Positions 25,273 through 63,696 are shown, counted from the stretch's first letter. The stretch is DNA of 64,000 bases from Candidatus Collierbacteria bacterium GW2011_GWB2_45_17 (GCA_001001485.1 LCKO01000004.1:4761-68760); one strand, 5' to 3'. Program-made: numbers and translations. Notes: generated by a model not told the origin, from the letters alone.

Positions 25273-26036
25273 ATTATCGGGCGACCGCAGAGGGTCGCCC
25301 CTACACGAATATGTTAAAGATAAAAAATTTAAAAATTGAAGTTGGTGGAAAAGAAATTTTGAAAGGGGTGGATTTGGAGGTGGGGAAGGGAGAAGTGGTG
25401 GCGTTGATGGGACCGAACGGGTCGGGAAAGTCAAGTTTGTCGAATACCTTGATGGGAAATCCAAACTATGAAATAACTGAAGGAGAGATGATTTTTGAAG
25501 GAAAAAATATCGGAGAAATGTCTCCGGACGAGCGCGCTGGACTAGGGATATTTATGGCCTTTCAGTACCCGGTAGCCATTCCCGGGGTAACGGTCAGAGA
25601 GATGTTGATTACCTCACTTAGGTCTCGTGGACAGGAAGTAAAAGCAATTGATGTCAAAAGACAGGTGGAAGAAATTGCCAAAGAGCTAAGAATAAGTGAA
25701 GATCTTTTGTCTCGAGGACTCAATGAGGGTTTTAGTGGAGGTGAAAAGAAGAAGATGGAAATACTGCAGATGAAGGTTTTGCAACCAAAACTGGCTATTT
25801 TGGATGAGACTGATAGTGGATTGGATCTGGACGCGATGAATTTTGTGGCTTTTGAAGTCCAGAGGCAGATTCAACAAACAGGAATGTCGGTGATTTTGAT
25901 TACCCATTATCAAAAAATGCTGACCCTGATTAATGTAGACAAGGTAGCAGTTTTGAAAAAAGGTTTGGTGGTAGACAGAGGAGGAAAAGAGCTGATAGAA
26001 GAATTAGGAAAAAACGGTTACAAAAAATATGAGTAG
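25269..26036 (+). CDS. sufC: Fe-S cluster assembly ATPase SufC
   Basis: Walker A GPNGSGKSSL, ABC signature FSGGEKKK, Walker B ILDETDSGLD. Possible true start at MLKIKNL (25311). Confidence 0.9.
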   Translation: MNYRATAEGRPYTNMLKIKNLKIEVGGKEILKGVDLEVGKGEVVALMGPNGSGKSSLSNTLMGNPNYEITEGEMIFEGKNIGEMSPDERAGLGIFMAFQYPVAIPGVTVREMLITSLRSRGQEVKAIDVKRQVEEIAKELRISEDLLSRGLNEGFSGGEKKKMEILQMKVLQPKLAILDETDSGLDLDAMNFVAFEVQRQIQQTGMSVILITHYQKMLTLINVDKVAVLKKGLVVDRGGKELIEELGKNGYKKYE

Positions 26037-27459
26037 ATTTGCCAAAAAAATTGTTGAGGAAAAGAAGAGTACGGAAGGGATTGGAGATACTTATGTTTTG
26101 GGACACAACGATAAATTTGAGTATGCCTATAAATCTGCTAAAGGTATAAGTGAAGCGAGAGTTAGAGAGATTTCGGCGCTGAAAGAAGAGCCGGAGTGGA
26201 TGCTAGAGATCCGCTTGAAAGCTTTGAAGATCTTTTTTGAGAAGAAAATGCCGGAATGGGGTGGGGATATGTCCAAGATAAATTTTGATGAAATTTATTA
26301 TTATTTGAAGCCACTTAATAAACCCGGTAAAACTTGGGATGAGGTACCCGCAGAAATAAAAGCCACCTTTGAAAAGATTGGAGTACCGCAAGCAGAAAGA
26401 GAGGCGCTCGCGGGAGTAAAAAGCCAGTACGACTCGGAAGTGATTTATGGATCTCTTCGGAAAAGTCTGTCTGACAAGGGAGTAGTTTTCTTGGGAATGG
26501 ACGAGGGACTTAAACAATATCCAGACTTAGTCAAAGAATATTTTGGCAAAGTAATTCCGATGGGAGACAACAAATTGGCGGCATTAAATACTGCCGCTTG
26601 GTCGGGAGGGTCCTTTGTCTATGTTCCCAAAGGAGTAGATGTAGAACTTCCCCTACAAACATATTTCCGAATCAACAGCGAGAACGCAGGACAGTTTGAA
26701 AGAACTTTGATCATCTTAGACGAAGGGGCGAATTTGCACTATATCGAAGGTTGTAGTGCATCCAGTTATTCTTCTGGATCGCTACATGCGGCAGTGGTGG
26801 AGATATTTGTGAAGAAAGGAGCCAAAATGCAGTACACTACGGTCCAAAATTGGTACAAAAATGTTTATAACTTGGTAACCAAGAGAGCGTGGGTGGAGGA
26901 GGAAGGGTTGATGAGATGGATAGACGGAAACTTGGGAAGTAAATTAACTCAAAAATATCCTTGTTGTATCTTGGCCGGGAGAAAGGCTAGAGGTGAAATC
27001 CTCTCGATTGCTTGGGCTGGGGCTGACCAACACCAAGACACCGGAGCAAAGATGATTCATTTGGCGCCAGAGACCACTTCGCAAATTTTGTCGAAGTCAA
27101 TTAGTAAGGGTGGAGGAAGAGCGACTTATCGGGGTTTGGTACAGATAAATAAAGGAGCCAAAGGGGCGAGATCCAAAGTGGTTTGTGATGCGCTGATACT
27201 TGACTCTAAGTCGAGGTCGGACACTTACCCGACAAATAAAATTATGGAGAATGAGTCAACGCTGGAGCATGAAGCGGTGGTGAGCAGAATATCGGAGGAT
27301 CAACTTTTCTATTTGATGTCCCGAGGAATTTCGGAGCATGAAGCGGAAGGGATGATTGTCAATGGGTTTCTTGAACCAGTGATGAGAGAGGTGCCGTTTG
27401 AGTACGCAATTGAGATGAACAGATTAGTTAATTTGGAGATGGAAGGGAGTGTGGGATGA
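26029..27459 (+). CDS. sufB: Fe-S cluster assembly protein SufB
   Basis: Full-length SufB-like; ILDEGANLHYIEGCSA and KISKGGGRATYRGLVQI motifs. Confidence 0.9.
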   Translation: MSRFAKKIVEEKKSTEGIGDTYVLGHNDKFEYAYKSAKGISEARVREISALKEEPEWMLEIRLKALKIFFEKKMPEWGGDMSKINFDEIYYYLKPLNKPGKTWDEVPAEIKATFEKIGVPQAEREALAGVKSQYDSEVIYGSLRKSLSDKGVVFLGMDEGLKQYPDLVKEYFGKVIPMGDNKLAALNTAAWSGGSFVYVPKGVDVELPLQTYFRINSENAGQFERTLIILDEGANLHYIEGCSASSYSSGSLHAAVVEIFVKKGAKMQYTTVQNWYKNVYNLVTKRAWVEEEGLMRWIDGNLGSKLTQKYPCCILAGRKARGEILSIAWAGADQHQDTGAKMIHLAPETTSQILSKSISKGGGRATYRGLVQINKGAKGARSKVVCDALILDSKSRSDTYPTNKIMENESTLEHEAVVSRISEDQLFYLMSRGISEHEAEGMIVNGFLEPVMREVPFEYAIEMNRLVNLEMEGSVG

Positions 27460-27965
27460 AAAAAAGAACTCAAGGAATCAAGGACTCAAGAACTCAAGAT
27501 GTTGAGAGATTTCTGGTTACAGAGCCGGGGAAGTATGAGTATGAAGTTATTATGGATGAGTTGAATAGTGAGAAAGATCTTTTGGGAATTATAAAGGCAG
27601 AAACCGAGGGAGATTATGAAATAAATCTGTTATCGAGACATGAGGTGGGGAAGACAAAATGTCGAGTAGAAGTCAAAGGAATTGTTTCTAATGGGGCAAG
27701 AGTAAAAGTTAAAGGTCGGGTAAAAATAGACGAGGGAGCTATAGGATCAGATAGTTTTTTGGCCATGAAACTCTTGATGTTGGATAATCGAAGTTTGGCA
27801 GTGGCTGAACCGGAACTAGAAATTGAGAATAATGAAGTCAAAGCCAGTCACAGTGCCAGTGTGGGAAGAATAGACGAAGAACAACTATTTTACTTAGCCA
27901 CTCGTGGAGTTTCTAAATCTGAAGCAGAAAAGTTAATAATTAAAGGCTTCTTGGGGGTAGAATAA
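27456..27965 (+). CDS. sufD: Short SufD-like (SufB/D C-terminal core) protein
   Basis: C-terminal SufBD beta-helix plus HSASVGRIDEEQLFYLATRGVSKSEAEKLIIKGFL. The N-terminal 15 codons are the 8-bp-period repeat (KKRTQGIKDSRTQD). Confidence 0.6.
   Translation: MKKRTQGIKDSRTQDVERFLVTEPGKYEYEVIMDELNSEKDLLGIIKAETEGDYEINLLSRHEVGKTKCRVEVKGIVSNGARVKVKGRVKIDEGAIGSDSFLAMKLLMLDNRSLAVAEPELEIENNEVKASHSASVGRIDEEQLFYLATRGVSKSEAEKLIIKGFLGVE
27462..27505 (+). repeat. 8-bp-period A-rich tandem repeat (gaactcaa ggaatcaa ggactcaa gaactcaa) forming the 5' end of sufD
   Basis: Period-8 units visible directly in the sequence; same family as 29342, 58306 and 60931. Confidence 0.75.
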
Positions 27966-27969
27966 GAAT

Positions 27970-29214
27970 ATGTTGGATGTACAGAAAATTAGGGAGGAGT
28001 TTCCGATACTAAAGCGGAAGATTAATGGACATGATTTGGTGTACTTGGATAGTGGGGCGACGAGTCAGAAACCGGAGAGTGTCTTGAGGGCGATGGATGA
28101 TTATTATCGGAATAATAACGCTAACATTCATCGAGGGGTCTATGACATGTCAGTAGAGTCAACCAGAATGGTGGATGAGGCCAGAGAGAAAGTAGCGAAA
28201 TTTATCGGGGCTAGGACAGAAGAAATAATTTTTACCAGGAATGCGAGTGAATCGCTTAATTTGGTGATGTATTCGTGGGGAAAGAAAAATATTAAAGAAG
28301 GCGACGCTGTTTTGGTGACTCGCTTAGAGCATCACTCGAACTTTGTGCCTTGGCAAGTACTTTGCAAAGAAAATAAGGCGGAGTTTAGAGTTTGGAATGT
28401 TGATAGGGAGGGGAGGTTAGTGGATGAGATTGCTTCGGTTCGGAGTACCGAAACTCGCAATGACGGGAAGGTGAAGTTGATTGCGATGACGGGAGCGAGT
28501 AACGCAATTGGGACCTTGGTGGATATTAAGAAGATGGTGGAGATGGTGAGGAGTAAGAATCCTGATGTAGTGGTAGTTTTGGATGCGTCGCAGATGGTGC
28601 CGCACATGAAGGTGGATGTTTCCAAATTGCCAGTGGACTTTGTAGCTTTTTCGGGACACAAGATGCTGGGGCCAACAGGGGTTGGGGTATTGTGGGGCAA
28701 AAAAGAAGTTCTAAACAAAATGGAGCCATTCTTGTATGGTGGGGACATGATTGGAGAAGTAGGGCTGGAAAGTACGACTTGGGGAGAGTTGCCCAATAAA
28801 TTTGAAGCGGGAACACCAGACATTGCCGGAATAATTGGCTTGGGGGCGGCGGTAGATTATTTGGAAAGTTTGGGAATGGATAATGTCAGAGAGCATGAAA
28901 AAGAGCTGATTGGATATGCTTTGGAGAAGTTTAAGGAATTGGGAGATTTGGTAACAGTATATGGAGTAGATAATGTGGAGGAGAAAGGCGGGGCTTTGGC
29001 GTTTAATGTGAAAGGGGTTCATGCTCATGATGTGGCGCAGGTTTTGAACAACTATGGAATTGCGGTACGATCTGGACAGCATTGTGCCGCTCCACTGGTG
29101 ACCAGTTTTGGAGTGTCGGCGATGGTGAGGGCGACTTTTTATATTTACAATACTAAAGAAGAAATTGATTATTTGGTAGAAAAATTGAAAGAAGTACCAA
29201 AAGTGTTTGCTTAA
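27970..29214 (+). CDS. sufS: Cysteine desulfurase SufS
   Basis: Class V aminotransferase; PLP lysine region FSGHKMLGPTGVGVL, active-site Cys in RSGQHCA; carries the 22-nt repeat (28441-28466) in frame. Confidence 0.9.
   Translation: MLDVQKIREEFPILKRKINGHDLVYLDSGATSQKPESVLRAMDDYYRNNNANIHRGVYDMSVESTRMVDEAREKVAKFIGARTEEIIFTRNASESLNLVMYSWGKKNIKEGDAVLVTRLEHHSNFVPWQVLCKENKAEFRVWNVDREGRLVDEIASVRSTETRNDGKVKLIAMTGASNAIGTLVDIKKMVEMVRSKNPDVVVVLDASQMVPHMKVDVSKLPVDFVAFSGHKMLGPTGVGVLWGKKEVLNKMEPFLYGGDMIGEVGLESTTWGELPNKFEAGTPDIAGIIGLGAAVDYLESLGMDNVREHEKELIGYALEKFKELGDLVTVYGVDNVEEKGGALAFNVKGVHAHDVAQVLNNYGIAVRSGQHCAAPLVTSFGVSAMVRATFYIYNTKEEIDYLVEKLKEVPKVFA
28441..28466 (+). repeat. 22-nt repeat gtaccgaaactcgcaatgacg inside sufS (encodes STETRNDG); second copy at 32962..32983 in an intergenic region
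   Basis: Exact 22-mer in both places; local hairpin ttcgg-agta-ccgaa in the sufS copy. Confidence 0.7.
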
Positions 29215-29622
29215 ATGTCGGACTACAAGGATGAAATTATTGATCACTACAAAAATCCGAGGAACTTTGGGGAATTAGAGAACGCGGATGTGACCATAAA
29301 TGAGGCGAATTCGTCATGTGGGGATGTGGTACAGATACAAATAAGAACTCTAGGAAACAAGAACTCAAGAACTCAAGATAAGGAAGATTTGGTAATAAAA
29401 GAGATGAAGTGGCGGGGGGTGGGGTGTGCGATTTCAACGGCCGCGGCCTCGATGCTGTCGGAGAAAGTGGTGGGGATGGACAAGAGAGACTTGGAAAAGT
29501 TGGGAGAAACGGGGATAATAAAGATGTTGGGTGGCGAGATAAATCCAGGTAGGATGAAGTGTGCCATGCTCGCCTATCGTGGGTTATTGAGAATATTTGA
29601 GGAAAAAAATCAAAAAATCTAA
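29215..29622 (+). CDS. sufU: SufU/IscU-like zinc-dependent sulfur transferase
   Basis: NPRNFGELENADV...CGD...GVGCAISTAAASML, the SufU motifs; contains an about 11-aa in-frame insertion (RTLGNKNSRTQD) relative to B. subtilis SufU. Confidence 0.85.
   Translation: MSDYKDEIIDHYKNPRNFGELENADVTINEANSSCGDVVQIQIRTLGNKNSRTQDKEDLVIKEMKWRGVGCAISTAAASMLSEKVVGMDKRDLEKLGETGIIKMLGGEINPGRMKCAMLAYRGLLRIFEEKNQKI
29342..29382 (+). repeat. 8-bp-period A-rich tandem repeat inserted in frame in sufU
   Basis: aagaactcta ggaaac aagaactcaa gaactcaa gat. Confidence 0.75.
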
Positions 29623-29645
29623 AAATCAAAAACTCAAAACTAAAA
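29603..29645 (+). repeat. 8-bp-period A-rich tandem repeat at the sufU 3' end / next gene 5' end
   Basis: aaaaatca aaaaatct aaaaatca aaaactca aaactaaa; supplies the last codons of sufU and the spurious N-terminal extension of the next ORF. Confidence 0.7.
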
Positions 29646-31979: not shown

Positions 31980-32912
31980 ATGGAAAATACAATTAATAAT
32001 ATGGTCGTTGAAGATGAGTTTAAACATGGGGAAACAACTGAATTCGTGGTTGCAAGAGGATCTCGATCGCTAGAGGAAGTGAATGGAAGGTTGGGCTACA
32101 AATATGGCAAAAAAAATGGCTCACTTAAATCGGTCGCAAGTGAAATGTTTAGAGATATAAATAAATTTATGGCTGTGGAAGAACGTGACTGGGGAGCAGA
32201 TGTGTTGGCTGAAACGGGATTACCAGGGACGAAGGTGGTAATAGGAGGGGTCACTGTTTATTTTCATGGGATATCACACAGTCAAGGAAATGCCATAGAT
32301 AAAGGTGTTGGTAAGGAAGAGTTTGATATTTATCTCAAGGAGTGGGTGAATGATACATATTTTGATAAAAAAGAAGGCGTGGTCTTGGAGTCCGGCTTTA
32401 GGCAAGCATATCATATGAATCAGGGAGAACCGGCGGGGGAAGATACTGTAATGGATAATCTCTTCAGAGAGAGCATCGGTAGTTTGTTAATTAATACTGG
32501 AGTTGCAATTGTAATTTCTGGATTTTCGGCCATGATTCGGAGAAATAATATTGAGAGTGGGGTAATTCCCGATTTTCTAAAAAAAGTTATTGATGGCAGA
32601 AAATCAATAAAAGACTTGGTTGATTTGAGAAAATCGTTTTTTAAATTACCACAACCCTTCTGGACATTGCTTCTAGCAGAATTAGCTCCTACTCATGCTG
32701 TTGAAAAATCGATTGTTATGTATCGATTGGGTATGGATAGGGTAAAAGGAGAAAATACAATCCATTTTTTGTGCGGTCTGGATCATGAGCAACATATGGC
32801 AAAACTTGCAAAAGAAGAAGGTCTGTCACGGGTTGGAATGACAATGTTTACAAAAAAAGGTTTGGAGTTGGAAGGTAAACAGCTTTTGGAAAAAATGGTA
32901 GCAGACTCTTGA
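31980..32912 (+). CDS. Hypothetical protein
   Basis: Intact 310-aa ORF; no recognised motif. Confidence 0.35.
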   Translation: MENTINNMVVEDEFKHGETTEFVVARGSRSLEEVNGRLGYKYGKKNGSLKSVASEMFRDINKFMAVEERDWGADVLAETGLPGTKVVIGGVTVYFHGISHSQGNAIDKGVGKEEFDIYLKEWVNDTYFDKKEGVVLESGFRQAYHMNQGEPAGEDTVMDNLFRESIGSLLINTGVAIVISGFSAMIRRNNIESGVIPDFLKKVIDGRKSIKDLVDLRKSFFKLPQPFWTLLLAELAPTHAVEKSIVMYRLGMDRVKGENTIHFLCGLDHEQHMAKLAKEEGLSRVGMTMFTKKGLELEGKQLLEKMVADS

Positions 32913-32927
32913 TTATGGATTGCCACG

Positions 32928-32983
32928 GTTCGGTACCCTCTTTGGGGTATCCATAGAAGTACCGAAACTCGCAATGACGCGAA
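32928..32983. repeat. Intergenic hairpin ggttcggtac...gtaccgaaac, containing the second copy of the 22-nt repeat gtaccgaaactcgcaatgacg
   Basis: Inverted repeat of 9 bp around a 24-nt loop; the 22-mer is identical to sufS 28441-28466. Confidence 0.6.
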
Positions 32984-33000
32984 TAATGTAAGATATTGAT

Positions 33001-33468
33001 ATGAAAGTAATACTGGGGGCGGATCATGGGGGATTTGAAATTAAAGAGAAAACCAAGGTTTGGCTGGAGGAGATGGTGGACCTGCAGGGCCTGGCCCTGC
33101 AGGTGGTGGATGTGGGGAGTGAGAGGAGTGATCCGGATGATGATTATGTGGACTATGCCATGAAAGCGGTACTGGAAAGAAAAGATGATGACAGAATGAT
33201 TTTGTTTTGTCGGAATGGGATGGGGATGGCAATAACGGCGAATAAGCGAAAGGGAGTGAGGTGTGGCTTGGGGTTTGGGTCTGAAGCGGTGAGGAAGGGC
33301 AGGACGGATGATGATATCAACGCTTTGGCGATACCGGCAGACTATTCAACCGATGAGGGAGTAAGAGAAATGGTGAAAATATTTTTGACTACAGAGTTTT
33401 CTAATTCCGAGAGATATAAAGCAAGACTGGAAAAACTTAGTAAACTTGAGGCAATATGGTCACAATAG
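33001..33468 (+). CDS. rpiB: Ribose-5-phosphate isomerase B
   Basis: ILGADHGGF...CRNGMGMAITANK, the RpiB/LacAB pattern; contains a 21-nt perfect palindrome (33085-33105) encoding an inserted DLQGLALQ relative to E. coli RpiB. Confidence 0.85.
   Translation: MKVILGADHGGFEIKEKTKVWLEEMVDLQGLALQVVDVGSERSDPDDDYVDYAMKAVLERKDDDRMILFCRNGMGMAITANKRKGVRCGLGFGSEAVRKGRTDDDINALAIPADYSTDEGVREMVKIFLTTEFSNSERYKARLEKLSKLEAIWSQ
33085..33105. repeat. Perfect 21-nt palindrome ctgcagggcctggccctgcag inside the rpiB coding sequence
   Basis: Self-complementary; shares the ggcctggccct core with the REP-like elements at 39842, 41950 and 62767. Confidence 0.8.
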
Positions 33469-34169
33469 TTCCGGCAATTCTGGAAAAAGATGTTACTTCT
33501 TTTTTGGAGAAGTTTGAGAAGATAAAAGGTAGTTGTAAGCGGGTTCAAGTGGATATAATTGACGGAAAGTTTGCGCCAACAGAGACGGTGATACCGGAGA
33601 TACTACTTAATATAGACACAGTGGTAGATTTTGAAGGCCACCTTATGGTGGAAAAACCGGAAAACTGGGTGGAGAGATGCGCGGCGGCGGGTATGACGGC
33701 ACTTTACGGTCAGGTGGAAAAAATGGAAGATAGAGCCAGGTTTGTGGCCGATACAGAATTTGCAGGCATGAAAGCGGGTTTGGCTTTTGACATCGACACT
33801 CCCCTGGATGGTTTGGAAGAGATAGTTAACGATCTGGATGGAGTATTGCTGATGGGGGTAAAAGCGGGCAGTCAGGGGGTACAGGAATTTGACGCGCGAG
33901 TGCTGGCTAAGATCAAGAAAGTGAGAGCGATGAGTGAATTTGTGACCATTGTGGTTGACGGCGGGCTGAAGGTAGAGAATATTAAAAAGTGTTTGGCGGC
34001 GGAGTGGGCGGAAGAGATAGTTGAGGATGAGTTTAACAAAAGTTTTTTGGGAATGGAGTTTGTGGTGGGAAGTGATTTGTTTGAGGCGCCTGATGTCGCG
34101 GTTGAGTTGGAGAGATTGGAATACTTGACGGAAAAAAATCCTCTGGATTCCGGATCAAGTCCGGAATGA
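33456..34169 (+). CDS. rpe: Ribulose-phosphate 3-epimerase
   Basis: IVPAILEKDV..., VQVDIIDGKFAP, HLMVEKPENW, the Rpe TIM-barrel motifs. Confidence 0.85.
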   Translation: MVTIVPAILEKDVTSFLEKFEKIKGSCKRVQVDIIDGKFAPTETVIPEILLNIDTVVDFEGHLMVEKPENWVERCAAAGMTALYGQVEKMEDRARFVADTEFAGMKAGLAFDIDTPLDGLEEIVNDLDGVLLMGVKAGSQGVQEFDARVLAKIKKVRAMSEFVTIVVDGGLKVENIKKCLAAEWAEEIVEDEFNKSFLGMEFVVGSDLFEAPDVAVELERLEYLTEKNPLDSGSSPE

Positions 34170-34231
34170 CAAGGGTGATGGAGTGAGATTCCTCGACGTT
34201 GCTCGGAATGACGGTGTAGTATAGTTGGGGT

Positions 34232-39832: not shown

Positions 39833-39903
39833 CAAATTCGATAGGGCCAGGCCTTGAAGATCTGGGACCCTATAAGGCCTGGCCCTGTGGGAGGATTGGG
39901 GGA
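39833..39903. repeat. REP/MITE-like palindromic element, copy 1 of 3 (between convergent genes)
   Basis: aaattcgatagggccaggccttgaagatctgggaccctataaggcctggccctgtgggaggattgggg; stem agggccaggcctt / aaggcctggccct. Confidence 0.8.
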
Positions 39904-41936
39904 GAGGGAGCAAGACGTCGTTCAATATCGGTCGGGTCGCAGGCAGTTTTTGGTTCGGTGCCTTTGACAAAGTAATCAACCCTGGTAGGACAACCCGTGC
40001 AAGTAAGTGTACCGGTAAGAATACAAATAGGTACCTTGATAAGATTTTCCGGTGGCGTAAGATTTTTGGGTTCATGATTTTTTTCCAAGATGGTGTTGAA
40101 TACTTTGGCCCAGATAGGAGAGGCGCCGGTGATACCGGAGGCTATTTTGGACATGGGTGAGCTGTCATTGTTACCGACCCAGGTGGCTACCAGAAAATTT
40201 TCCGTAAATCCAATAGCCCAGTTATCTTTTAGATCATTGCTGGTGCCGGTCTTGACGGCAACTTTGGCCGACTTGATATTGAGAACTGAGTTGGCTCCGA
40301 AAGCCGCGCTTCTGGCACCGTTGTCACTGAGAATGTCGGAAACAAGATAGGCGGTGGTTGGAGACAAATTACGTTTGGGAGTGCAGATAACTTCTTCGGC
40401 GTTGACAACAGTGTTACTGCCGGCGAGATTTTTTTGACTAGGGCAGGTAACTAGCTTAAGAAGTTCACCGGTATTTTTTTCTACTTTTAAGATAGTGAGG
40501 AGAGGAGTAGTGATACCTTGGTTAGCAAAGGTAGAGTAAGCGGTGGCAAGATCGGTCATCTTGACCTCCAAACTGCCGAGCGCAATTGAAGGTCCGAACC
40601 TTCCCGGGTCGTCCCAGGTGGTGATTCCAAGTTTTTTGGCAAAATCGGCGAAGTTGTTGACGCCATTTTGCAGAAGGATGAGAACGGAGGGGATATTGTA
40701 TGAACTGGCTAATGCCTGACGAAGAGTGATGGTGCCGTGAAATTTGCCATCGTAGTTTTTGGGCGTCCAAACTTCATTACCCGAAAGACGGACTGTAACG
40801 GGACGATCTTCGATAATGTTGGCTGGGTTGTGACCTTTTTCAAAATAGAGAGCGTAGTTTAAGGGCTTGATAGAGCTCCCCGGCTGGCGAGTGGCTGTGG
40901 TCAGGTTAACTTGACCATTTTCCTTCAAATTAAAATAATCCTTTGAACCGACCATGGCTAAGACCTCACCGGTTTTAGGATTGGTGACCAAGGCGGAACC
41001 ATTGGATACATTTAACCTTTTTATTTTCTCAACTTCTTCGGTGACAATCTTTTGAACCTGATCTTGAAGGTTGGCATCAAGGGTGGTGTAAACTCTTAAA
41101 CCTCCCTGGGTAACGACGCCTTCTCCCAACTGATCAACTAATAGGCTTTTGACGAGCATCACAAAATGCGGTGCCTTGATCTCAATTTTGGCAGATTTAA
41201 AGTCAATTTTTTCTTCGAGAGATTTGTCTAAATCTATCTTAGTAATCAAACCATCCTTGAACATTTGATGTAAAACCCATTGTTGTCTGGTAATAGCCAG
41301 TTCCGGTTGGTCTCCGAATGGAGAATACTTGCTGGGGGCTCGGGTGAGTCCGGCCAAAAAAGCCGCTTGAGCCAGATCTAGGTCCTGGGAATCGATGTCA
41401 AAATACTGACGGGCGGCCTCTTGGATGCCATAAGCCGGGCCGCCAAAACCGACTTGATTGAGATACATCTCAAAAATTTTATCCTTAGTGAAGAGATGTT
41501 CTGCTTTGATAGCCAGAATAATTTCTTTGACTTTTCGGGTAATAGTTTTTTCCGGTGTGAGAATAGTATTTTTGATTAATTGTTGAGTGATGGTAGAGCC
41601 ACCCTCGAGTTTATCGTCGAAAAGATTTTTATAAATAGCCCTAATAAGTCCCGGTAGTGAGAAACCGTTGTGAGAATAAAAATCCTTGTCTTCGGCGGCG
41701 AGAAAAGCGTTTTTGACGTGCTGAGGAAGAGAATCTAGAGAAATTAGAGTTCTGTTTTCGTCTTTGTAGATTTTGTATAACAGAACACCGTTTCGATCAA
41801 GAATTTGGGTAGTTAATTTTGAGGGGTATTGAGAAAGTTGTTTGGGGTCCGGTAAGCCACGGAAAATTTCAAAGTAGAGAATAAAAGAAAGGACGGCTAG
41901 AGATAGTAGAAAAAAAAGATTGCGTTTGGGGAGCAT
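39870..41936 (-). CDS. PBP1A-family bifunctional transglycosylase/transpeptidase (penicillin-binding protein) 1
   Basis: GT51 EDKDFYSHNG, GGSTITQQLIKN; TPase GSSIKP (SxxK), SSYN (SxN), KTGTSND (KTG). Start at ATG 41936 (MLPKRNLFFLL TM anchor); the ORF-track start 42161 reads through repeat copy 2. Confidence 0.85.
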   Translation of the reverse strand: MLPKRNLFFLLSLAVLSFILYFEIFRGLPDPKQLSQYPSKLTTQILDRNGVLLYKIYKDENRTLISLDSLPQHVKNAFLAAEDKDFYSHNGFSLPGLIRAIYKNLFDDKLEGGSTITQQLIKNTILTPEKTITRKVKEIILAIKAEHLFTKDKIFEMYLNQVGFGGPAYGIQEAARQYFDIDSQDLDLAQAAFLAGLTRAPSKYSPFGDQPELAITRQQWVLHQMFKDGLITKIDLDKSLEEKIDFKSAKIEIKAPHFVMLVKSLLVDQLGEGVVTQGGLRVYTTLDANLQDQVQKIVTEEVEKIKRLNVSNGSALVTNPKTGEVLAMVGSKDYFNLKENGQVNLTTATRQPGSSIKPLNYALYFEKGHNPANIIEDRPVTVRLSGNEVWTPKNYDGKFHGTITLRQALASSYNIPSVLILLQNGVNNFADFAKKLGITTWDDPGRFGPSIALGSLEVKMTDLATAYSTFANQGITTPLLTILKVEKNTGELLKLVTCPSQKNLAGSNTVVNAEEVICTPKRNLSPTTAYLVSDILSDNGARSAAFGANSVLNIKSAKVAVKTGTSNDLKDNWAIGFTENFLVATWVGNNDSSPMSKIASGITGASPIWAKVFNTILEKNHEPKNLTPPENLIKVPICILTGTLTCTGCPTRVDYFVKGTEPKTACDPTDIERRLAPSPPILPQGQAL

Positions 41937-41937
41937 G

Positions 41938-42011
41938 ACAAAATTCGATAGGGCCAGGCCTTGAAGATCTGGGACCCTATAAGGCCTGGCCCTATAGGAG
42001 GATTTGGGGAG
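41938..42011. repeat. REP/MITE-like palindromic element, copy 2 of 3 (immediately upstream of the PBP gene start)
   Basis: Near-identical to copy 1, including the flanks aaattcgat... and ...ataggaggatttgggg. Confidence 0.8.
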
Positions 42012-42188
42012 TGTGAGACGGGGAGGACGAAGAGTGAGGAGTTTTTCAAACAAAAGGATGACAAAACCGACAAAAGAAACGAAAAAGACAAGTAAGCTGA
42101 AGACGGGACGACCAACTAATAAAAAGACGTTTTTGGATTGAGTTTTTTTCTTTATACCCATGATTGTAAGGCTGAGGGGTAAAAAAAA

Positions 42189-57946: not shown

Positions 57947-58884
57947 GGAAATTAATTCTCATCGATGGTAACGCTTTGCTACATCGAGCGTATCACGCTT
58001 ACCCGCCACTTTCGACACCCAAAGGAGAGCTGGTAAATGCGGTATATGGTTTTTCATCGATGCTGTTGTCGGTATTGGAAAAACTGTCTCCCACTCACGT
58101 GGCGGTGGCTTGGGACCTTAAAGGACCCACTTTTAGAAAACAGGAGTTTGAAGCTTACAAAGCCAACAGAGACCCGATGGATGAGGATTTGGCGACACAA
58201 ATAGACCGAACGAAAGAAGTGGTGGAGAAACTTAATATTCCTCAGTATGGCATCGAGGGTTTTGAAGCGGATGATATTATCGGAACGATCTCAAGGCTGG
58301 CATTCGAAAGAACTCAAGAACTCAAGAACTCAAGAACTCAAGATGAGGATACTCAGGTGGTAATTGTGACGGGAGACAGAGACTCACTTCAATTAATTAA
58401 AGGGAAAAAAGTTGTTGTTTATCTACCGATCCAGAATCATCACGGCCAGTCGGTGGTTTTTGATGAGGACAAAGTCAGAGAGGTTTACGGCTTGAACCCC
58501 AAACAGATAATTGATTTGAAAAGTTTAATGGGAGATGCCTCGGATAATATTCCGGGGGTTAAAGGGGTGGGTAGAGTGACGGCAACCAAATTAATTCAAG
58601 AGTTTGGAAATCTAGAAAATATTTACAAAAATATTAATGACATAAAGATTACTCCAAGAGTGAAAGCCATGTTGTCGTCGGACAAGGAAATGGCTGAAAA
58701 AAGTTTCCATTTAGCGGAAATAAATTGTGACGTACAATTGAAACTCGATTGGGACGATTGTTTGTTAACTAACTATGACAAAAACGGAGCCCTGTCTTTG
58801 TTTGAGGAATTGAACTTTAAGAGTCTGATTAGTAAACTACCTAAAGATTCCTGGGAGAAAGAAATCCAGGATATATTTATATGA
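57943..58884 (+). CDS. 5'-3' exonuclease / flap endonuclease (Pol I N-terminal-domain-like)
   Basis: LILIDGNALLHRAYHA, FEADDIIGT, VTGDRDSLQL, H3TH GDASDNIPGVKGVG; carries an in-frame 12-aa repeat insertion RTQELKNSRTQD. Confidence 0.8.
   Translation: MRKLILIDGNALLHRAYHAYPPLSTPKGELVNAVYGFSSMLLSVLEKLSPTHVAVAWDLKGPTFRKQEFEAYKANRDPMDEDLATQIDRTKEVVEKLNIPQYGIEGFEADDIIGTISRLAFERTQELKNSRTQDEDTQVVIVTGDRDSLQLIKGKKVVVYLPIQNHHGQSVVFDEDKVREVYGLNPKQIIDLKSLMGDASDNIPGVKGVGRVTATKLIQEFGNLENIYKNINDIKITPRVKAMLSSDKEMAEKSFHLAEINCDVQLKLDWDDCLLTNYDKNGALSLFEELNFKSLISKLPKDSWEKEIQDIFI
58306..58346 (+). repeat. 8-bp-period tandem repeat (gaactcaa)x4 inserted in frame in the 5'-3' exonuclease gene
   Basis: aa gaactcaa gaactcaa gaactcaa gaactcaa gat. 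Confidence 0.85.
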
Positions 58885-60541: not shown

Positions 60542-61390
60542 ATGCCTGAACTACCGGAGGTGGAAACCATTAGAAGACAACTAAAAGAAGTCCTTGTTGG
60601 GAAAACTATCTCTAAGATCGAAGTGTTGCGGGCAAAAAGTTTTGCCGGTGATCCCAAGTCGCTGATCGGCCGGAAGATTAAGGATATACAAAGAAAGTCG
60701 AAAGTAATCGAGGTTTCGTTTGAAGACCACGAGAAGATGGTAACAGTTCACTTAAAAATGACCGGCCAATTGGTATTTGTAGATGGGGAGATGAGAGTTT
60801 CTGGAGGGCATCCGACGGCGGACTGGGTGAATGGCTTGCACAGTAAACATACCCGAGTAGTGTGGACTTTTGATGACGGGTCAAAACTGTTCTTTAACGA
60901 CATGCGCGTGTTTGGATGGATGAAACTAGTAGAAAGAACTCAAGAACTCAAGAACTCTAGGTATCAAGTTCCAGATGTAATAGACAAAGATTTCACAGAA
61001 GACTATCTCTTCAATTCATTAAAGAAGACTAAAAAACCGATAAAGCTAATTTTGCTTGATCAGAACAAAATTGGCGGCCTGGGGAATATCTATGTGAATG
61101 ATGCTTTATTTATGGCCGGGGTAAGACCGGAGAGAAAGACCGACACTTTAGAAAAAAAAGAAGTCAGTAAACTTCACAAAGCCATCGTAAAAGTGATTAA
61201 TCTGGGAATTAAGTATGGAGGTGCCAGTGCCAGTAACTATGTTCAAGTTTCAGGACTGGGTGGAACTTATCAAGATCATTTTTTGGTTTATAAAAGAGAG
61301 GGTCTGAAGTGCCGGGATTGTGAGAGCAAAATTCAAAAGATAAAATTGGGAGGACGAGGAACTTTCTTCTGCCCAAGCTGTCAAAAATAA
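60542..61390 (+). CDS. mutM: Formamidopyrimidine-DNA glycosylase Fpg/MutM
   Basis: Starts MPELPEVETIRR (catalytic Pro2, Glu3); H2TH; C-terminal zinc finger CRDCESKIQK...FFCPSCQ; in-frame repeat insertion RTQELKNSR. Confidence 0.85.
   Translation: MPELPEVETIRRQLKEVLVGKTISKIEVLRAKSFAGDPKSLIGRKIKDIQRKSKVIEVSFEDHEKMVTVHLKMTGQLVFVDGEMRVSGGHPTADWVNGLHSKHTRVVWTFDDGSKLFFNDMRVFGWMKLVERTQELKNSRYQVPDVIDKDFTEDYLFNSLKKTKKPIKLILLDQNKIGGLGNIYVNDALFMAGVRPERKTDTLEKKEVSKLHKAIVKVINLGIKYGGASASNYVQVSGLGGTYQDHFLVYKREGLKCRDCESKIQKIKLGGRGTFFCPSCQK
60931..60968 (+). repeat. 8-bp-period tandem repeat inserted in frame in fpg/mutM
   Basis: aa gaactcaa gaactcaa gaactcta ggtatcaag. Confidence 0.8.
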
Positions 61391-62736: not shown

Positions 62737-62757
62737 TGTTTTATTATAATGCTTGTG

Positions 62758-62825
62758 AAATTCTAGGGCCAGGCCTTGAAGATTGGGGATCCTATAAGGC
62801 CTGGCCCTGATAGGAGTAAAATTGG
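62758..62825. repeat. REP/MITE-like palindromic element, copy 3 of 3 (between divergent gene starts)
   Basis: gaaattctagggccaggccttgaagattggggatcctataaggcctggccctgataggag; variant of copies 1-2 with small indels. Confidence 0.75.
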
Positions 62826-63696
62826 TGATGTGAAGATTGAAACATTTGATAAAAGCTGGTTTGAGGACAGTAAGACGCTGAAAAATATCGTCGGCAAACA
62901 TGCCGCCGGACAAGTGACCATTATTGGAGGAAGCAAACTGTTTCATGGCGCACCATTACTGGCTTTGAGAGGGGCGGCTAGAATTGCGGGGATGGTTTAT
63001 TTTTCGACACCGGACGAAGATAAAGAGGTGGCAGATAAAATCAAAACAGGGCTGTCTAGCTTTGTTTGGGTACCTTACGAGGAAGCCGGAAACTACATTG
63101 CCAAATCTGATGCGGTACTAATTGGACCGGGGATGATGAGGAGCCACATCAAAGAACAGAACTTTGTTTGTGACCGCGAGGGAGAAGCGACGAGAAGAAG
63201 GTGTCAAGATCTATTTGATAAACATGCCGACAGAAAATGGGTGATCGACGGTGGAGCCCTGCAAGTGGTAAGTGTAGAAAAAATGCCTCGAGGAGCAGTG
63301 GTGACTCCAAATGATAAAGAGTTTGAGATGATGTTTGGTCAAAAAATAGAAGAGGAAATTGAAAAAAGAGGTGAACAGATTCTATCACTGGCTAAAAAGT
63401 ATCACCTGGTAATCTTGACGAAAGATAAAATTTCGATAGTAAGCGATGGTGAAAGAGTCGTAAAAATATTGGGAGGAAATGACGGACTGGTGAAGGGCGG
63501 TATCGGGGACACGATCGCCGGTGTGTTGGCGGGGTTTTTGGCCAAAGACGAACCGATATTTGCCGCGGCGGCGGCCTCATATTTGGTAAAAGGAGCGGCA
63601 GAAAAGTTGGCCGAACGGCAAGGCTATATGTTTAACGCTGATGATGTAGTAAATATGGTGCCAGAAATATACGGAGAGGCGGTAAATAACTTGTGA
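62776..63696 (+). CDS. NAD(P)H-hydrate dehydratase (YjeF C-terminal / Nnr2, carbohydrate-kinase fold)
   Basis: VTIIGGSKLFHGAPLLALRGAARIAGMVYF, VLIGPGMM, GGNDGLVKGGIGDTIAGVLAGFLAK. The 5' end is uncertain: the first codons come from the REP-like element, and a GTG at about 62830 is an alternative start. Confidence 0.7.
   Translation: MKIGDPIRPGPDRSKIGDVKIETFDKSWFEDSKTLKNIVGKHAAGQVTIIGGSKLFHGAPLLALRGAARIAGMVYFSTPDEDKEVADKIKTGLSSFVWVPYEEAGNYIAKSDAVLIGPGMMRSHIKEQNFVCDREGEATRRRCQDLFDKHADRKWVIDGGALQVVSVEKMPRGAVVTPNDKEFEMMFGQKIEEEIEKRGEQILSLAKKYHLVILTKDKISIVSDGERVVKILGGNDGLVKGGIGDTIAGVLAGFLAKDEPIFAAAAASYLVKGAAEKLAERQGYMFNADDVVNMVPEIYGEAVNNL

What the first reader, a model, noticed from the sequence alone, without database searches (positions are those of the whole stretch)
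33085..33105. Perfect 21-nt palindrome inserted in frame in rpiB, related to a REP/MITE-like element present in three intergenic copies
The sequence ctgcagggcctggccctgcag is exactly self-complementary and sits inside rpiB. Relative to E. coli RpiB (HLVERG-VEVIDKGTW) this gene reads WLEEMVDLQGLALQVVDVGSE, an extra stretch of about 7-8 aa. The palindrome's core ggcctggccct is also the core of a roughly 65-nt palindromic element present in three copies (39833-39903, 41938-42011, 62758-62825), whose minus-strand reading likewise contains DLQGLAL.

This is a second, independent class of small repeat occupying coding sequence without breaking the frame. A palindrome that must also encode a tolerated peptide is strongly constrained, which argues for a recent insertion or a selected nucleic-acid function such as a protein-binding site or an RNA hairpin inside the mRNA.
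Basis: seen in the sequence. Interest (0 to 1): 0.65.

Follow-up and report, generated by a model that had tools for sequence, protein, structure and literature searches.

The report
REP palindrome inside the rpiB gene
The palindrome in rpiB is one copy of a 23-base mobile-type repeat (a REP element) whose matching transposase gene is found in the same groundwater bacterium; the repeat sits in frame in a surface loop of the enzyme, as it does in many other essential genes of these bacteria.

Summary
The window carries ACCTGCAGGGCC-T-GGCCCTGCAGGT at 33080-33104 inside an intact rpiB.

It is not a private oddity of rpiB. Its 23-nt core, CCTGCARGGCCWGGCCYTGCAGG, is a dispersed repeat with sharp ends and unrelated flanks. 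I found 93 non-redundant single copies in low-GC CPR/Patescibacteria contigs. It also occurs as head-to-head doublets, and the three 44-nt doublets in the window belong to this class.

The same 23-mer flanks a Y1/HUH (IS200-like, RAYT-type) transposase gene on both sides and occurs twice in frame inside it. That gene is recorded in the same Collierbacteria MAGs as the window's RpiB. More distant relatives of the transposase carry a co-varied palindrome at the same four positions.

About 30% of copies lie in frame in real genes (PheS, ArgRS, LeuRS, MnmA, PGM and others).

In rpiB the repeat is old. It is shared by recombining lineages, three of six alleles are perfect palindromes, and two of those three carry compensatory changes. 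The 18-nt length difference lies upstream of the palindrome.

Best reading: an intragenic REP tolerated in the α1–β2 loop. This is a new variant of the known REP–RAYT kind.

The parts
33081..33103 (.). REP unit: the 23-nt palindrome CCTGCAGGGCC-T-GGCCCTGCAGG. Symmetry extends to 33080-33104. It is read in rpiB as (D)LQGLALQ.
   Evidence: It is identical to the 23-nt consensus of 93 dispersed single copies and to the units flanking the RAYT gene of the same organism, apart from the centre base.
33001..33468 (+). rpiB (ribose-5-phosphate isomerase B, 155 aa), the host gene. It is intact.
   Evidence: Pfam LacAB_rpiB E=8e-30. The exact protein is in NCBI as Candidatus Collierbacteria RpiB. AF2 model has pLDDT 92.5.
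33064..33081 (+). 18-nt segment CTGGAGGAGATGGTGGAC (LEEMVD). This is the real length difference between the 155-aa alleles and the 149-aa REP-bearing alleles.
   Evidence: DNA alignment A2. P0242, P0007 and P0008 go straight from Trp to the palindrome.
39843..39886 (.). REP doublet 1 (REPIN-like): arms AGGGCCAGGCCTT (39843-39855) and AAGGCCTGGCCCT (39874-39886). The repeat family spans 39834-39910. It supplies the last 6 codons and the TAG stop (39870-39872) of the minus-strand PBP1A gene.
   Evidence: hairpin -32 to -38 kcal/mol.
41950..41993 (.). REP doublet 2 (family span 41941-42017). It is open in frame with the PBP1A ORF (…RARPYRVPDLQGLALSNF…), immediately 5' of the Met at 41937.
   Evidence: The L001 orthologue has a different repeat at this same spot.
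62765..62808 (.). REP doublet 3 (family span 62756-62832), in the divergent spacer between a small minus-strand membrane-protein gene and a plus-strand gene (no family assigned here).
39870..42161 (-). PBP1A (Transgly + Transpeptidase) ORF, whose two ends are touched by doublets 1 and 2.

Best explanation
The rpiB palindrome is a single copy (singlet) of a REP-type repeat. The repeat belongs to a REP–RAYT system native to this Candidatus Collierbacteria (CPR/Patescibacteria) lineage.

Shown:
- The unit is a 23-nt near-perfect palindrome, CCTGCARGGCCWGGCCYTGCAGG.
- It is dispersed with unrelated flanks, as singlets and as head-to-head doublets that fold into long hairpins.
- It brackets a single Y1/HUH tyrosine-transposase gene of the RAYT type, and lies twice inside that gene. 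The gene is present in the same MAGs as the window.

Inferred:
- The transposase, or single-strand hairpin processing that depends on it, spread the unit.
- One copy entered the DNA that encodes the α1–β2 loop of RpiB in an ancestor of a Collierbacteria sub-clade.
- It was tolerated for three reasons. The unit has no stop codon in any frame. The net change was a multiple of three. The encoded LQG(Q/L)ALQ only lengthens helix α1 and a loop on the face opposite the active site.
- The copy has since been inherited and shuffled by recombination. In some lineages the protein length was restored by an 18-nt deletion next to it.
- Its symmetry is kept by compensatory changes, either through selection on a hairpin or through template-switch or conversion 'correction' of the arms.

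For RpiB itself the copy is most likely a neutral passenger.
For: Family membership:
- The rpiB site has a 22-nt exact identity with an element half in a related MAG.
- It equals the 23-nt consensus of 93 non-redundant singlets, whose flanks are random beyond positions -1 and +23.
- Arm pair 6/16 co-varies across copies: G-C 56, A-T 34, mixed 21.
- All 13 doublets found through the singlet pattern are A-centre then T-centre.

Transposase link:
- Nine loci have palindromes about 26-57 nt upstream of the ATG, at +149, at about +456/471, and just after the stop of a 221-240-aa gene.
- The gene matches Pfam Y1_Tnp at 3e-11. Its only NCBIfam hit is REP_Tyr_transpos.
- The HUH motif and the catalytic Tyr align to ISDra2 TnpA.
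- The predicted fold matches IS608 TnpA (E=4e-5) and E. coli RAYT 4er8 (E=5e-5, rmsd 3.4 Å).
- The L028 copy is 100% identical to P0260. P0260 carries locus tags UW48_C0014G0007 and UX08_C0014G0007, which are the same MAGs as the window's RpiB.
- A 62%-identical relative carries CCTACAGGGTC-N-GACCCTGTAGG at the same four positions, which is two compensatory pairs. It is syntenic with a second species.

Derived state in rpiB:
- Outgroup RpiBs and solved structures lack the segment.
- Six rpiB alleles were read. Three are perfect palindromes, and two of those three carry compensated pairs. Three have a single mismatch.

Tolerance:
- Residues 25-34 are the end of helix 9-29 plus loop 30-33, and this is the lowest-confidence block of the model.

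Generality:
- About 32 of 111 copies lie in open frames with at least 50 codons on each side.
- Ten were checked against Pfam. In eight (PheS, PGM, an α/β-hydrolase, an RluB-like synthase, ComM, ArgRS, MnmA, a LysRS-like protein) the repeat lies inside a matched domain. In two (an ELP3-like protein, LeuRS) it lies between matched domains.
Against: - No transposition has been shown, and activity of the CPR transposase on this palindrome is untested.
- The transposase scores 43-45 bits against NCBIfam's RAYT model, below the cut-off of 80.
- The unit lacks the 5' GTAG or CGTC tag of classical REPs.
- The net length change in genes is not +21 or +23. It is +18 or 0 nt in rpiB, 0 in PGM and RluB, and +6 nt in MnmA. 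Simple insertion is therefore not enough: either compensating deletions or an overwrite mechanism must be assumed.
- Only one perfect singlet occurs in this 64-kb window. Whole-genome copy number is unknown.
- The compensatory changes in rpiB rest on few independent events, and recombination blurs the history.
Confidence: 0.8

Rival explanations
1. The rpiB copy is more than a passenger. The palindrome would be kept by selection as a cis-acting site inside the mRNA or DNA. Candidate roles are an RNA hairpin that sets mRNA stability or translation of the rpiB–rpe operon, or a binding site for the Y1 transposase or another dimeric protein.
For: - The sense-strand hairpin is strong: 11 bp, about -22 to -26 kcal/mol, z -2.2; the antisense strand gives z -4.5.
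- 97% of arm cells are paired across 8 alleles. Two pairs changed on both sides. Only 2 of 500 shuffles reach the observed covariation, and slid controls collapse to 26-52% paired.
- A further perfect A-T variant occurs in P0242.
- REPs at two fixed in-frame positions of the transposase gene persist across lineages with co-varied sequence. This shows that intragenic copies can be under constraint.
Against: - Three of six rpiB alleles carry an unpaired position.
- The L002 allele folds no better than shuffles (z -0.01).
- The same unit sits in many unrelated genes and frames, which argues against a function specific to rpiB.
- Compensatory pairs can arise without selection, by template switching in quasipalindromes. 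This is a known mutational mechanism that I cite from general knowledge; it was not tested here.
Confidence: 0.15
2. The palindrome arose in place within an ancestral RpiB loop, for example by quasipalindrome correction. Its resemblance to the dispersed repeat would then be coincidental.
For: - The short 149-aa alleles show the palindrome replacing seven codons with no length change.
- PGM and RluB also show replacements of equal length.
Against: - The site is identical over 23 of 23 positions to the consensus of more than 90 dispersed copies. It is identical outside the centre base to the units flanking the organism's own transposase gene.
- The expected number of chance matches is 0.00.
- Outgroups have unrelated sequence at the site: 7 of 21 identities by my own reading of the aligned sequences.
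Confidence: 0.02
3. The 23-mer is a DNA-uptake-type or restriction/modification-related signal. It contains CCWGG, GGCC, CTGCAG and CCTGCAGG, and would be enriched genome-wide for that reason rather than through transposase-driven spread.
For: - It occurs in both coding and non-coding DNA.
- It is palindromic and made of several classical restriction-site motifs (read directly from the sequence).
Against: - Its density is far below that of uptake sequences: one perfect copy in 64 kb.
- Four copies cluster in and around each Y1 transposase gene, and the palindrome sequence co-varies with the transposase lineage.
- Doublets have a fixed head-to-head polarity.
Confidence: 0.03

Closest known systems
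REP / REPIN – RAYT systems (E. coli REP/BIME with TnpA-REP, PDB 4er8; Pseudomonas fluorescens REPINs)
   Same: - A short dispersed palindrome with unrelated flanks.
- Inverted doublets that form a longer hairpin.
- One Y1/HUH transposase gene bracketed by the repeats.
- The transposase is syntenic between species.
- The repeat sequence co-varies with the transposase lineage.
- Repeats overlap stop codons of neighbouring genes.
   Different: - The unit is an almost perfect 11+1+11 palindrome with no real loop and no 5' GTAG or CGTC tag.
- Roughly 30% of sampled copies are in frame inside genes.
- Two copies lie in frame at fixed positions inside the transposase ORF itself.
- The transposase is below NCBIfam's RAYT cut-off and has a long C-terminal extension (about 225 aa).
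- The host is a CPR bacterium. In the paper library searched, none of the ten papers listed for the search pairing RAYT with CPR terms contained the RAYT term.
Intragenic GTAG/CGTC REPs (Di Nocera et al. 2013, PMC3733652)
   Same: These are REP units lying wholly within ORFs of known proteins. They are read through as extra amino acids, sometimes at the same site in related species.
   Different: Those families carry GTAG or CGTC tags and are reported in other bacterial species (Opitutus terrae, Rickettsia conorii, Thauera, Xanthomonas). Here the intragenic fraction is high, the unit is stop-free in all six frames, and net length changes are small or zero.
Rickettsia palindromic elements (RPE)
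   Same: These are palindromic repeats inserted in frame into genes for functional proteins in a small-genome bacterium, adding surface peptide segments (as summarised in PMC3733652).
   Different: From general knowledge, RPEs are about 100-150 bp, have no known dedicated transposase, and are restricted to Rickettsia. The present unit is 23 nt (44-60 nt as a doublet) and has an associated Y1 transposase.
IS200/IS605 insertion sequences (IS608, ISDra2)
   Same: The transposase has the same fold and the same HUH and Tyr chemistry. It recognises DNA hairpins at element ends, and there are no long target-site duplications.
   Different: Here the gene looks single-copy and syntenic, and what is multiplied is the hairpin alone.

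Membership tests
REP/REPIN–RAYT system | Short (20-40 nt) palindromic unit dispersed at many loci with unrelated flanks | tested here: met
   There are 93 non-redundant singlets. Base frequencies are random beyond positions -1 and +23.
REP/REPIN–RAYT system | Multiple copies within one genome | tested here: inconclusive
   The window has 1 perfect unit plus 3 doublets. The 58-kb contig Ga0075756_110, which carries the same organism's transposase, has at least 6 perfect units. One MAG has at least 13 doublets. No whole-genome count was possible.
REP/REPIN–RAYT system | Inverted doublets (REPINs) able to form a long hairpin | tested here: met
   13 of 13 doublets are A-centre then T-centre. Window doublets fold at -31 to -38 kcal/mol, z -3.2 to -6.5.
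REP/REPIN–RAYT system | A Y1 (HUH) tyrosine-transposase gene flanked by the repeats | tested here: met
   Most of nine loci have palindromes on both flanks. Pfam Y1_Tnp 3e-11. Fold matches 4er8 and IS608 TnpA. The gene is present in the window's own MAGs.
REP/REPIN–RAYT system | Transposase reaches the curated RAYT model (NCBIfam NF047646, cut-off 80 bits) | tested here: not met
   43-45 bits. It is the only family hit, but it is below the cut-off.
REP/REPIN–RAYT system | 5' GTAG (or CGTC) tetranucleotide tag next to the stem | tested here: not met
   The unit ends in CCTGCAG…CTGCAGG. Only the L142 variant contains CTGTAGG, and there it lies within the stem. The tag definition is from PMC3733652.
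REP/REPIN–RAYT system | Extragenic location | tested here: not met
   About 32 of 111 copies lie in long open frames. Ten were checked against Pfam: in eight the repeat lies inside a matched domain, in two between matched domains.
REP/REPIN–RAYT system | Repeat sequence co-varies with the transposase lineage; the transposase is single-copy and vertically inherited | tested here: met
   L142 and L143 carry variant palindromes at the same four positions. The PPDK–transposase–PGI synteny holds in two species. Single-copy status was not checked genome-wide.
REP/REPIN–RAYT system | Transposase binds or cleaves the repeat as single-stranded DNA | not testable with these tools
   Needs biochemistry.
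Rickettsia palindromic elements (RPE) | In-frame residence in genes for functional proteins | tested here: met
Rickettsia palindromic elements (RPE) | Element of about 100-150 bp belonging to the Rickettsia RPE sequence families | tested here: not met
   The unit is 23 nt and the doublet core is 44 nt. The host is Collierbacteria.
MITE | 70-300 bp with terminal inverted repeats and target-site duplications | tested here: not met
   No flanking direct repeats of 3 nt or more were found. 2-nt identity occurs 15 times in 87 against 5.9 expected. The size is 23-60 nt.
RpiB/LacAB sugar-phosphate isomerase (host gene) | Full-length match to PF02502 and to solved RpiB chains | tested here: met
   104 bits, profile positions 1-138 of 138. 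15 PDB RpiB sequences at E<1e-10.

The most novel reading that the evidence does not exclude
In CPR bacteria the REP–RAYT relationship may be self-referential and may reach into coding DNA. Three observations point this way:
- The transposase ORF itself carries two in-frame copies of its own recognition palindrome, at fixed positions (+149 and about +456/471). Their sequence co-evolves with the flanking and dispersed copies.
- The dispersed copies are written into essential genes.
- The net length change is small or zero (0 nt in PGM, RluB and short RpiB).

This would mean an overwrite or conversion mode of spread and active homogenisation of intragenic copies, rather than classical insertion. 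The internal copies might act as master templates or as autoregulatory sites.
Probability: 0.25. Interest if true: 0.75.

Novelty: new variant of a known kind. Interest (0 to 1): 0.55.

Why it matters
REP–RAYT systems are best known from Proteobacteria, and how REPs multiply is still unresolved. This window leads to a REP–RAYT system in the ultra-small CPR/Patescibacteria.

The CPR system has three unusual properties:
- The unit is stop-free in all frames.
- About a third of sampled copies are translated as part of housekeeping enzymes, including aminoacyl-tRNA synthetases, MnmA, PGM and RpiB.
- The transposase gene carries its own repeat twice in frame.

Practical consequences:
- Peptides such as LQG(Q/L)ALQ and PAGPGPAG in CPR proteins are repeat-encoded, not functional motifs.
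- The palindromes are likely breakpoints for recombination and for assembly chimeras. The rpiB alleles are mosaics around the site.
- The co-varying repeat/transposase pairs give a natural series for testing Y1-transposase recognition rules.

Tried and rejected
- Rfam (gathering thresholds) on the whole window found only three tRNAs and nothing at the repeats.
- The viral-contig scan for the 21-mer gave a single hit in a 64%-GC contig. I judge it a chance match in coding DNA, so there is no sign of a phage origin.
- About 15 metagenome hits in contigs of 60-74% GC were set aside as chance matches.
- A Pfam scan of 74 window ORFs shows only the first 25 of 105 families, so it could not exclude a transposase. 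A tblastn with the transposase found none in the window or in L001-L026. The link to the window's organism came from accession and locus-tag records instead.
- I tried to order the rpiB events (empty, then +REP, then 18-nt deletion) by similarity. Region-wise identities show mosaic alleles, with P0001 matching the window at the 5' end and P0002 at the 3' end, and P0007 matching P0004 at the site and P0006 at the 3' end. No reliable tree can be drawn, and some mosaics may be assembly chimeras.
- A tandem-duplication origin of the extra 18 nt was rejected by eye. LGEMMG and LQGQAL share no DNA similarity.
- Sequence search did not retrieve E. coli RAYT 4er8. Only the fold search did.
- Target-site duplications were not found beyond a weak 2-nt signal.
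- The variant palindrome AAGGACWGTCCTT was sought in all loci. It occurs only in the two rpiB alleles.

Full report
**Observation.**
The window reads ...GTGG ACCTGCAGGGCC T GGCCCTGCAGGT GGTGG.... The symmetry is 12+12 nt around a central T (33080-33104). It lies in ORF 33001-33468(+), which matches Pfam LacAB_rpiB over the full profile at E=8e-30. GGCCTGGCCCT occurs 7 times against 0.01 expected, and GGCCWGGCC 7 times against 0.26 expected. The other six hits are the paired arms of three elements: AGGGCCAGGCCTT, then 18 nt, then AAGGCCTGGCCCT, at 39843-39886, 41950-41993 and 62765-62808. Their minus-strand reading gives DLQGLAL or NLQGLAL.

**The site in rpiB orthologues.**
A protein search returned 195 RpiBs. 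In the alignment, the window, P0001-P0005 and P0016 share a 6-residue surplus between helix α1 and strand β2, relative to all other relatives. They also share it relative to T. maritima RpiB 1o1x. DNA was fetched for eight alleles and aligned.
- The 149-aa alleles P0007 and P0008 also carry the palindrome, directly after Trp. So does P0242, which sits in the window's own 90% cluster.
- The 18-nt indel among these alleles is therefore the upstream CTGGAGGAGATGGTGGAC (LEEMVD or LGEMMG).
- Truly 'empty' alleles (P0006, P0009, P0010 and beyond) read WLGE-MGVE-VLDVG, with unrelated DNA at the site.

Six palindrome alleles exist:

| Allele | Sequence | State |
|---|---|---|
| window, P0001 | CTGCAGGGCC-T-GGCCCTGCAG | perfect |
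| P0242 | CTGCAAGGCC-A-GGCCTTGCAG | perfect; pair 6 G-C changed to A-T |
| P0004, P0007 | CTGCAAGGAC-A-GTCCTTGCAG | perfect; two compensated pairs |
| P0002 | not tabulated (alignment) | one mismatch |
| P0003 | not tabulated (alignment) | one mismatch |
| P0008 | not tabulated (alignment) | one mismatch |

On the 8-sequence alignment, 97% of arm cells pair and two pairs changed on both sides. Only 2 of 500 shuffles reach the observed covariation, and slid controls fall to 26-52% paired. Region-wise identities show that the alleles are mosaics around the site. The history cannot be drawn as a tree, and some mosaics may be assembly chimeras. The insertion is therefore old and shared, not recent.

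**The repeat family.**
A scan of one genome per species for the doublet found 16 loci in four MAGs. One is Candidatus Collierbacteria RIFOXYD2_FULL_45_13. One MAG has at least 13 copies. Many of those doublets read CTGCAGGGCCAGGCCTT…CTGCAGGGCCTGGCCCTGCAGG, a 22-nt exact match to the rpiB site.

- Roughly 15 of them are in contigs of 60-74% GC and look like chance matches.
- The rest are in contigs of 38-53% GC with unrelated flanks.
- After removing duplicates there are 93 singlets. Base frequencies are flat outside a 23-nt unit, C-CTGCARGGCC-W-GGCCYTGCAG-G.
- Arm pair 6/16 co-varies: G-C 56, A-T 34, mixed 21.
- Every doublet recovered through the singlet pattern is A-centre then T-centre. The centre base therefore marks polarity, and doublets are head-to-head pairs that form one long hairpin.
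- No target-site duplication of 3 nt or more is present.

**The transposase.**
Several loci carried three or four units within about 800 nt. Each cluster surrounds a 221-240-aa ORF.
- The ORF matches Pfam Y1_Tnp at 3e-11.
- Its only NCBIfam hit is REP-associated tyrosine transposase, at 43-45 bits, below the cut-off of 80.
- The HUH motif (PNHFHF) and the catalytic Tyr (KYIHRNP) align to ISDra2 TnpA.
- An AF2 model has a confident core. The two repeat-encoded peptides fall in low-confidence loops.
- The model's best PDB matches are IS608 TnpA and the E. coli RAYT–REP complex 4er8, the latter at rmsd 3.4 Å.

In nine loci the palindromes sit about 26-57 nt upstream of the ATG, at +149 (read LQGxxL[QK]), at about +456/471 (read P[AS]GPGP[AE]G), and just after the stop. 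A 62%-identical relative carries CCTACAGGGTC-N-GACCCTGTAGG at the same four positions, which is two compensatory pairs. It lies between PPDK and PGI, as does a second species' copy. The family is large in CPR, including Collierbacteria, Woesebacteria and Moraniibacteria.

The L028 transposase is 100% identical to P0260, which has accessions KKT54259.1 and HCX25491.1 and locus tags UW48_C0014G0007 and UX08_C0014G0007. The window's RpiB, Rpe and neighbouring gene are exact matches to proteins of those same MAGs, labelled Candidatus Collierbacteria / Microgenomates GW2011_GWC1_44_23. The window's organism therefore encodes the transposase, bracketed by the same 23-mer that sits in its rpiB.

**Intragenic copies are common.**
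About 32 of 111 non-redundant copies lie in open frames with at least 50 codons on each side. Ten were checked against Pfam. In eight of them (PheS, PGM, an α/β-hydrolase, an RluB-like pseudouridine synthase, ComM, ArgRS, MnmA and a LysRS-like protein) the repeat lies inside a matched domain. In two (an ELP3-like protein and LeuRS) it lies between matched domains. The unit has no stop codon in any frame. It is mostly read as LQG(Q/L)ALQ or PAGPGPAG, and rarely as CRA(R/W)PCR.

Net length change against solved homologues is small:

| Gene | Net change |
|---|---|
| PGM (LLQGLALQG against LISGLLSTG) | 0 residues |
| RluB-like | 0 residues |
| MnmA | +2 residues |
| RpiB | +6 or 0 residues |
| LysRS-like (doublet) | +14 residues |

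This does not fit plain insertion of 21-23 nt. rpiB shows both the long and the length-restored state, which favours insertion followed by a compensating deletion. An overwrite mechanism is not excluded.

**Where it sits in RpiB.**
The AF2 model (pLDDT 92.5) places residues 25-34 at the end of helix 9-29 and in loop 30-33 before strand 34-37. This is the lowest-confidence block of the model. By the usual geometry of this α/β fold, that is the edge opposite the C-terminal ends of the strands that form the active site. This is an inference and was not measured here.

**The three doublets in the window.**
- Copy 1 supplies …PQGQAL and the TAG stop of PBP1A. The L002 orthologous site has the same doublet. 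L001 instead has the unrelated '…gattgccac…tcgcaatgacg' repeat, and its PBP1A ORF stops earlier (…PTPQIL, TAA), where the window ORF reads on into the doublet (…PPILPQGQAL, TAG).
- Copy 2 is open in frame with the PBP1A ORF, just 5' of Met 41937. L001 carries the other repeat there, also in frame. Whether the long N-terminal extension is translated is unresolved.
- Copy 3 lies in a divergent spacer. A GGAG on its right flank is 13 nt upstream of the first in-frame start candidate of the plus-strand gene, GTG at 62830 (inference).

**Interpretation.**
The best-supported account is an intragenic REP singlet of a REP–RAYT system, tolerated in a surface loop (confidence 0.8 for identity). The steps shown are family membership, transposase association, presence in the same organism, the derived state in rpiB, and the generality of in-frame copies. 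The steps inferred are mobilisation by the transposase, neutrality for RpiB, and the cause of the retained symmetry.

Rivals:
- A selected hairpin or binding site in rpiB (0.15, and not exclusive with the main account).
- In-place origin with coincidental resemblance (0.02).
- An uptake or restriction-related signal (0.03).

**Comparison and novelty.**
REP–RAYT systems, REPIN doublets and even intragenic REPs are known (PMC3733652; PMC3116915 and PMC3337134 listed). This case differs in several ways:
- The unit is loop-less and lacks the GTAG or CGTC tag.
- The intragenic fraction is high.
- Net length changes are small.
- Two in-frame units sit inside the transposase ORF.
- The host is a CPR bacterium. 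In the paper library searched, none of the ten papers listed for the search pairing RAYT with CPR terms contained the RAYT term.

I rate it a new variant of a known kind, interest 0.55.

**Limits.**
- Copies were retrieved with a near-perfect pattern, so their perfection is partly ascertainment. Only rpiB and the protein-retrieved transposase loci are unbiased.
- Genome-wide copy number and strand bias could not be measured.
- No activity data exist.

Noticed in passing
window 32914-32990; 28425-28470; 34150-34215; also L001 16875-16962: A second, unrelated CPR repeat (…gattgc[c/t]…tcgcaatgacg…) lies just upstream of rpiB, inside the intact cysteine-desulfurase ORF (27970-29211), and at the rpe 3' end. 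In L001 it occupies exactly the two PBP1A sites where the window has REP doublets. In metagenome loci it is often directly adjacent to REP singlets (L033, L035, L053, L056, L075, L111, L119, L137).
   Followed up: partly
window 27447-27508, 29326-29379, 29595-29645, 58299-58352, 60925-60978, 1632-1665: There are short tandem arrays of an 8-nt unit (AAGAACTC / AAAAATCA). AAGAACTCAAGAACTC with up to 2 mismatches occurs 8 times against 0.06 expected. The same motif flanks a REP doublet in L137.
   Followed up: no
window 1-64000: GC skew is positive in every 2-kb bin (0.04 to 0.40) and most long ORFs are on the plus strand. This strong strand-composition asymmetry resembles one reported for a Microgenomates genome (PMC7143001, title seen).
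   Followed up: no
L002 2310-4838, compared with window 26029-27456 and L001 4030-5460: SufB of the L002 relative carries an intein with a LAGLIDADG domain (842 aa). The window and L001 SufB are intein-free (about 476 aa). HicAB and MazE/PIN toxin-antitoxin pairs are also inserted in L002 and L003 but are absent from the window's syntenic block.
   Followed up: no
rpiB alleles: L009, L010, L007, and proteins P0016/P0024: The rpiB alleles are mosaics with switch points near the palindrome. P0001 is 100% window-like up to nt 110, then 98-100% P0002-like. P0016 joins a P0004-like N-terminus to a P0024-like body. This is either recombination at the repeat or chimeric metagenome assembly.
   Followed up: partly
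P0011 (RpiB homologue, 156 aa): A different 7-residue insertion (GDPTSPAATLGAS) occupies the same α1–β2 loop in another lineage, so this loop is a general indel hot spot.
   Followed up: no
L011 1612-5163: Two REP doublets lie in frame in a low-complexity linker of a 1184-codon open frame. By my reading of the translation, that frame joins a P-loop (GKSGTGKS Walker A) ATPase to a Nudix-like C-terminal domain; no family search was run on it. The repeats may have fused two genes.
   Followed up: no
window 31980-32912: A 310-aa ORF with no Pfam match sits between the Fe-S assembly genes and rpiB. It is absent from the syntenic loci L001 and L002, where FeS_assembly_P directly precedes rpiB.
   Followed up: no
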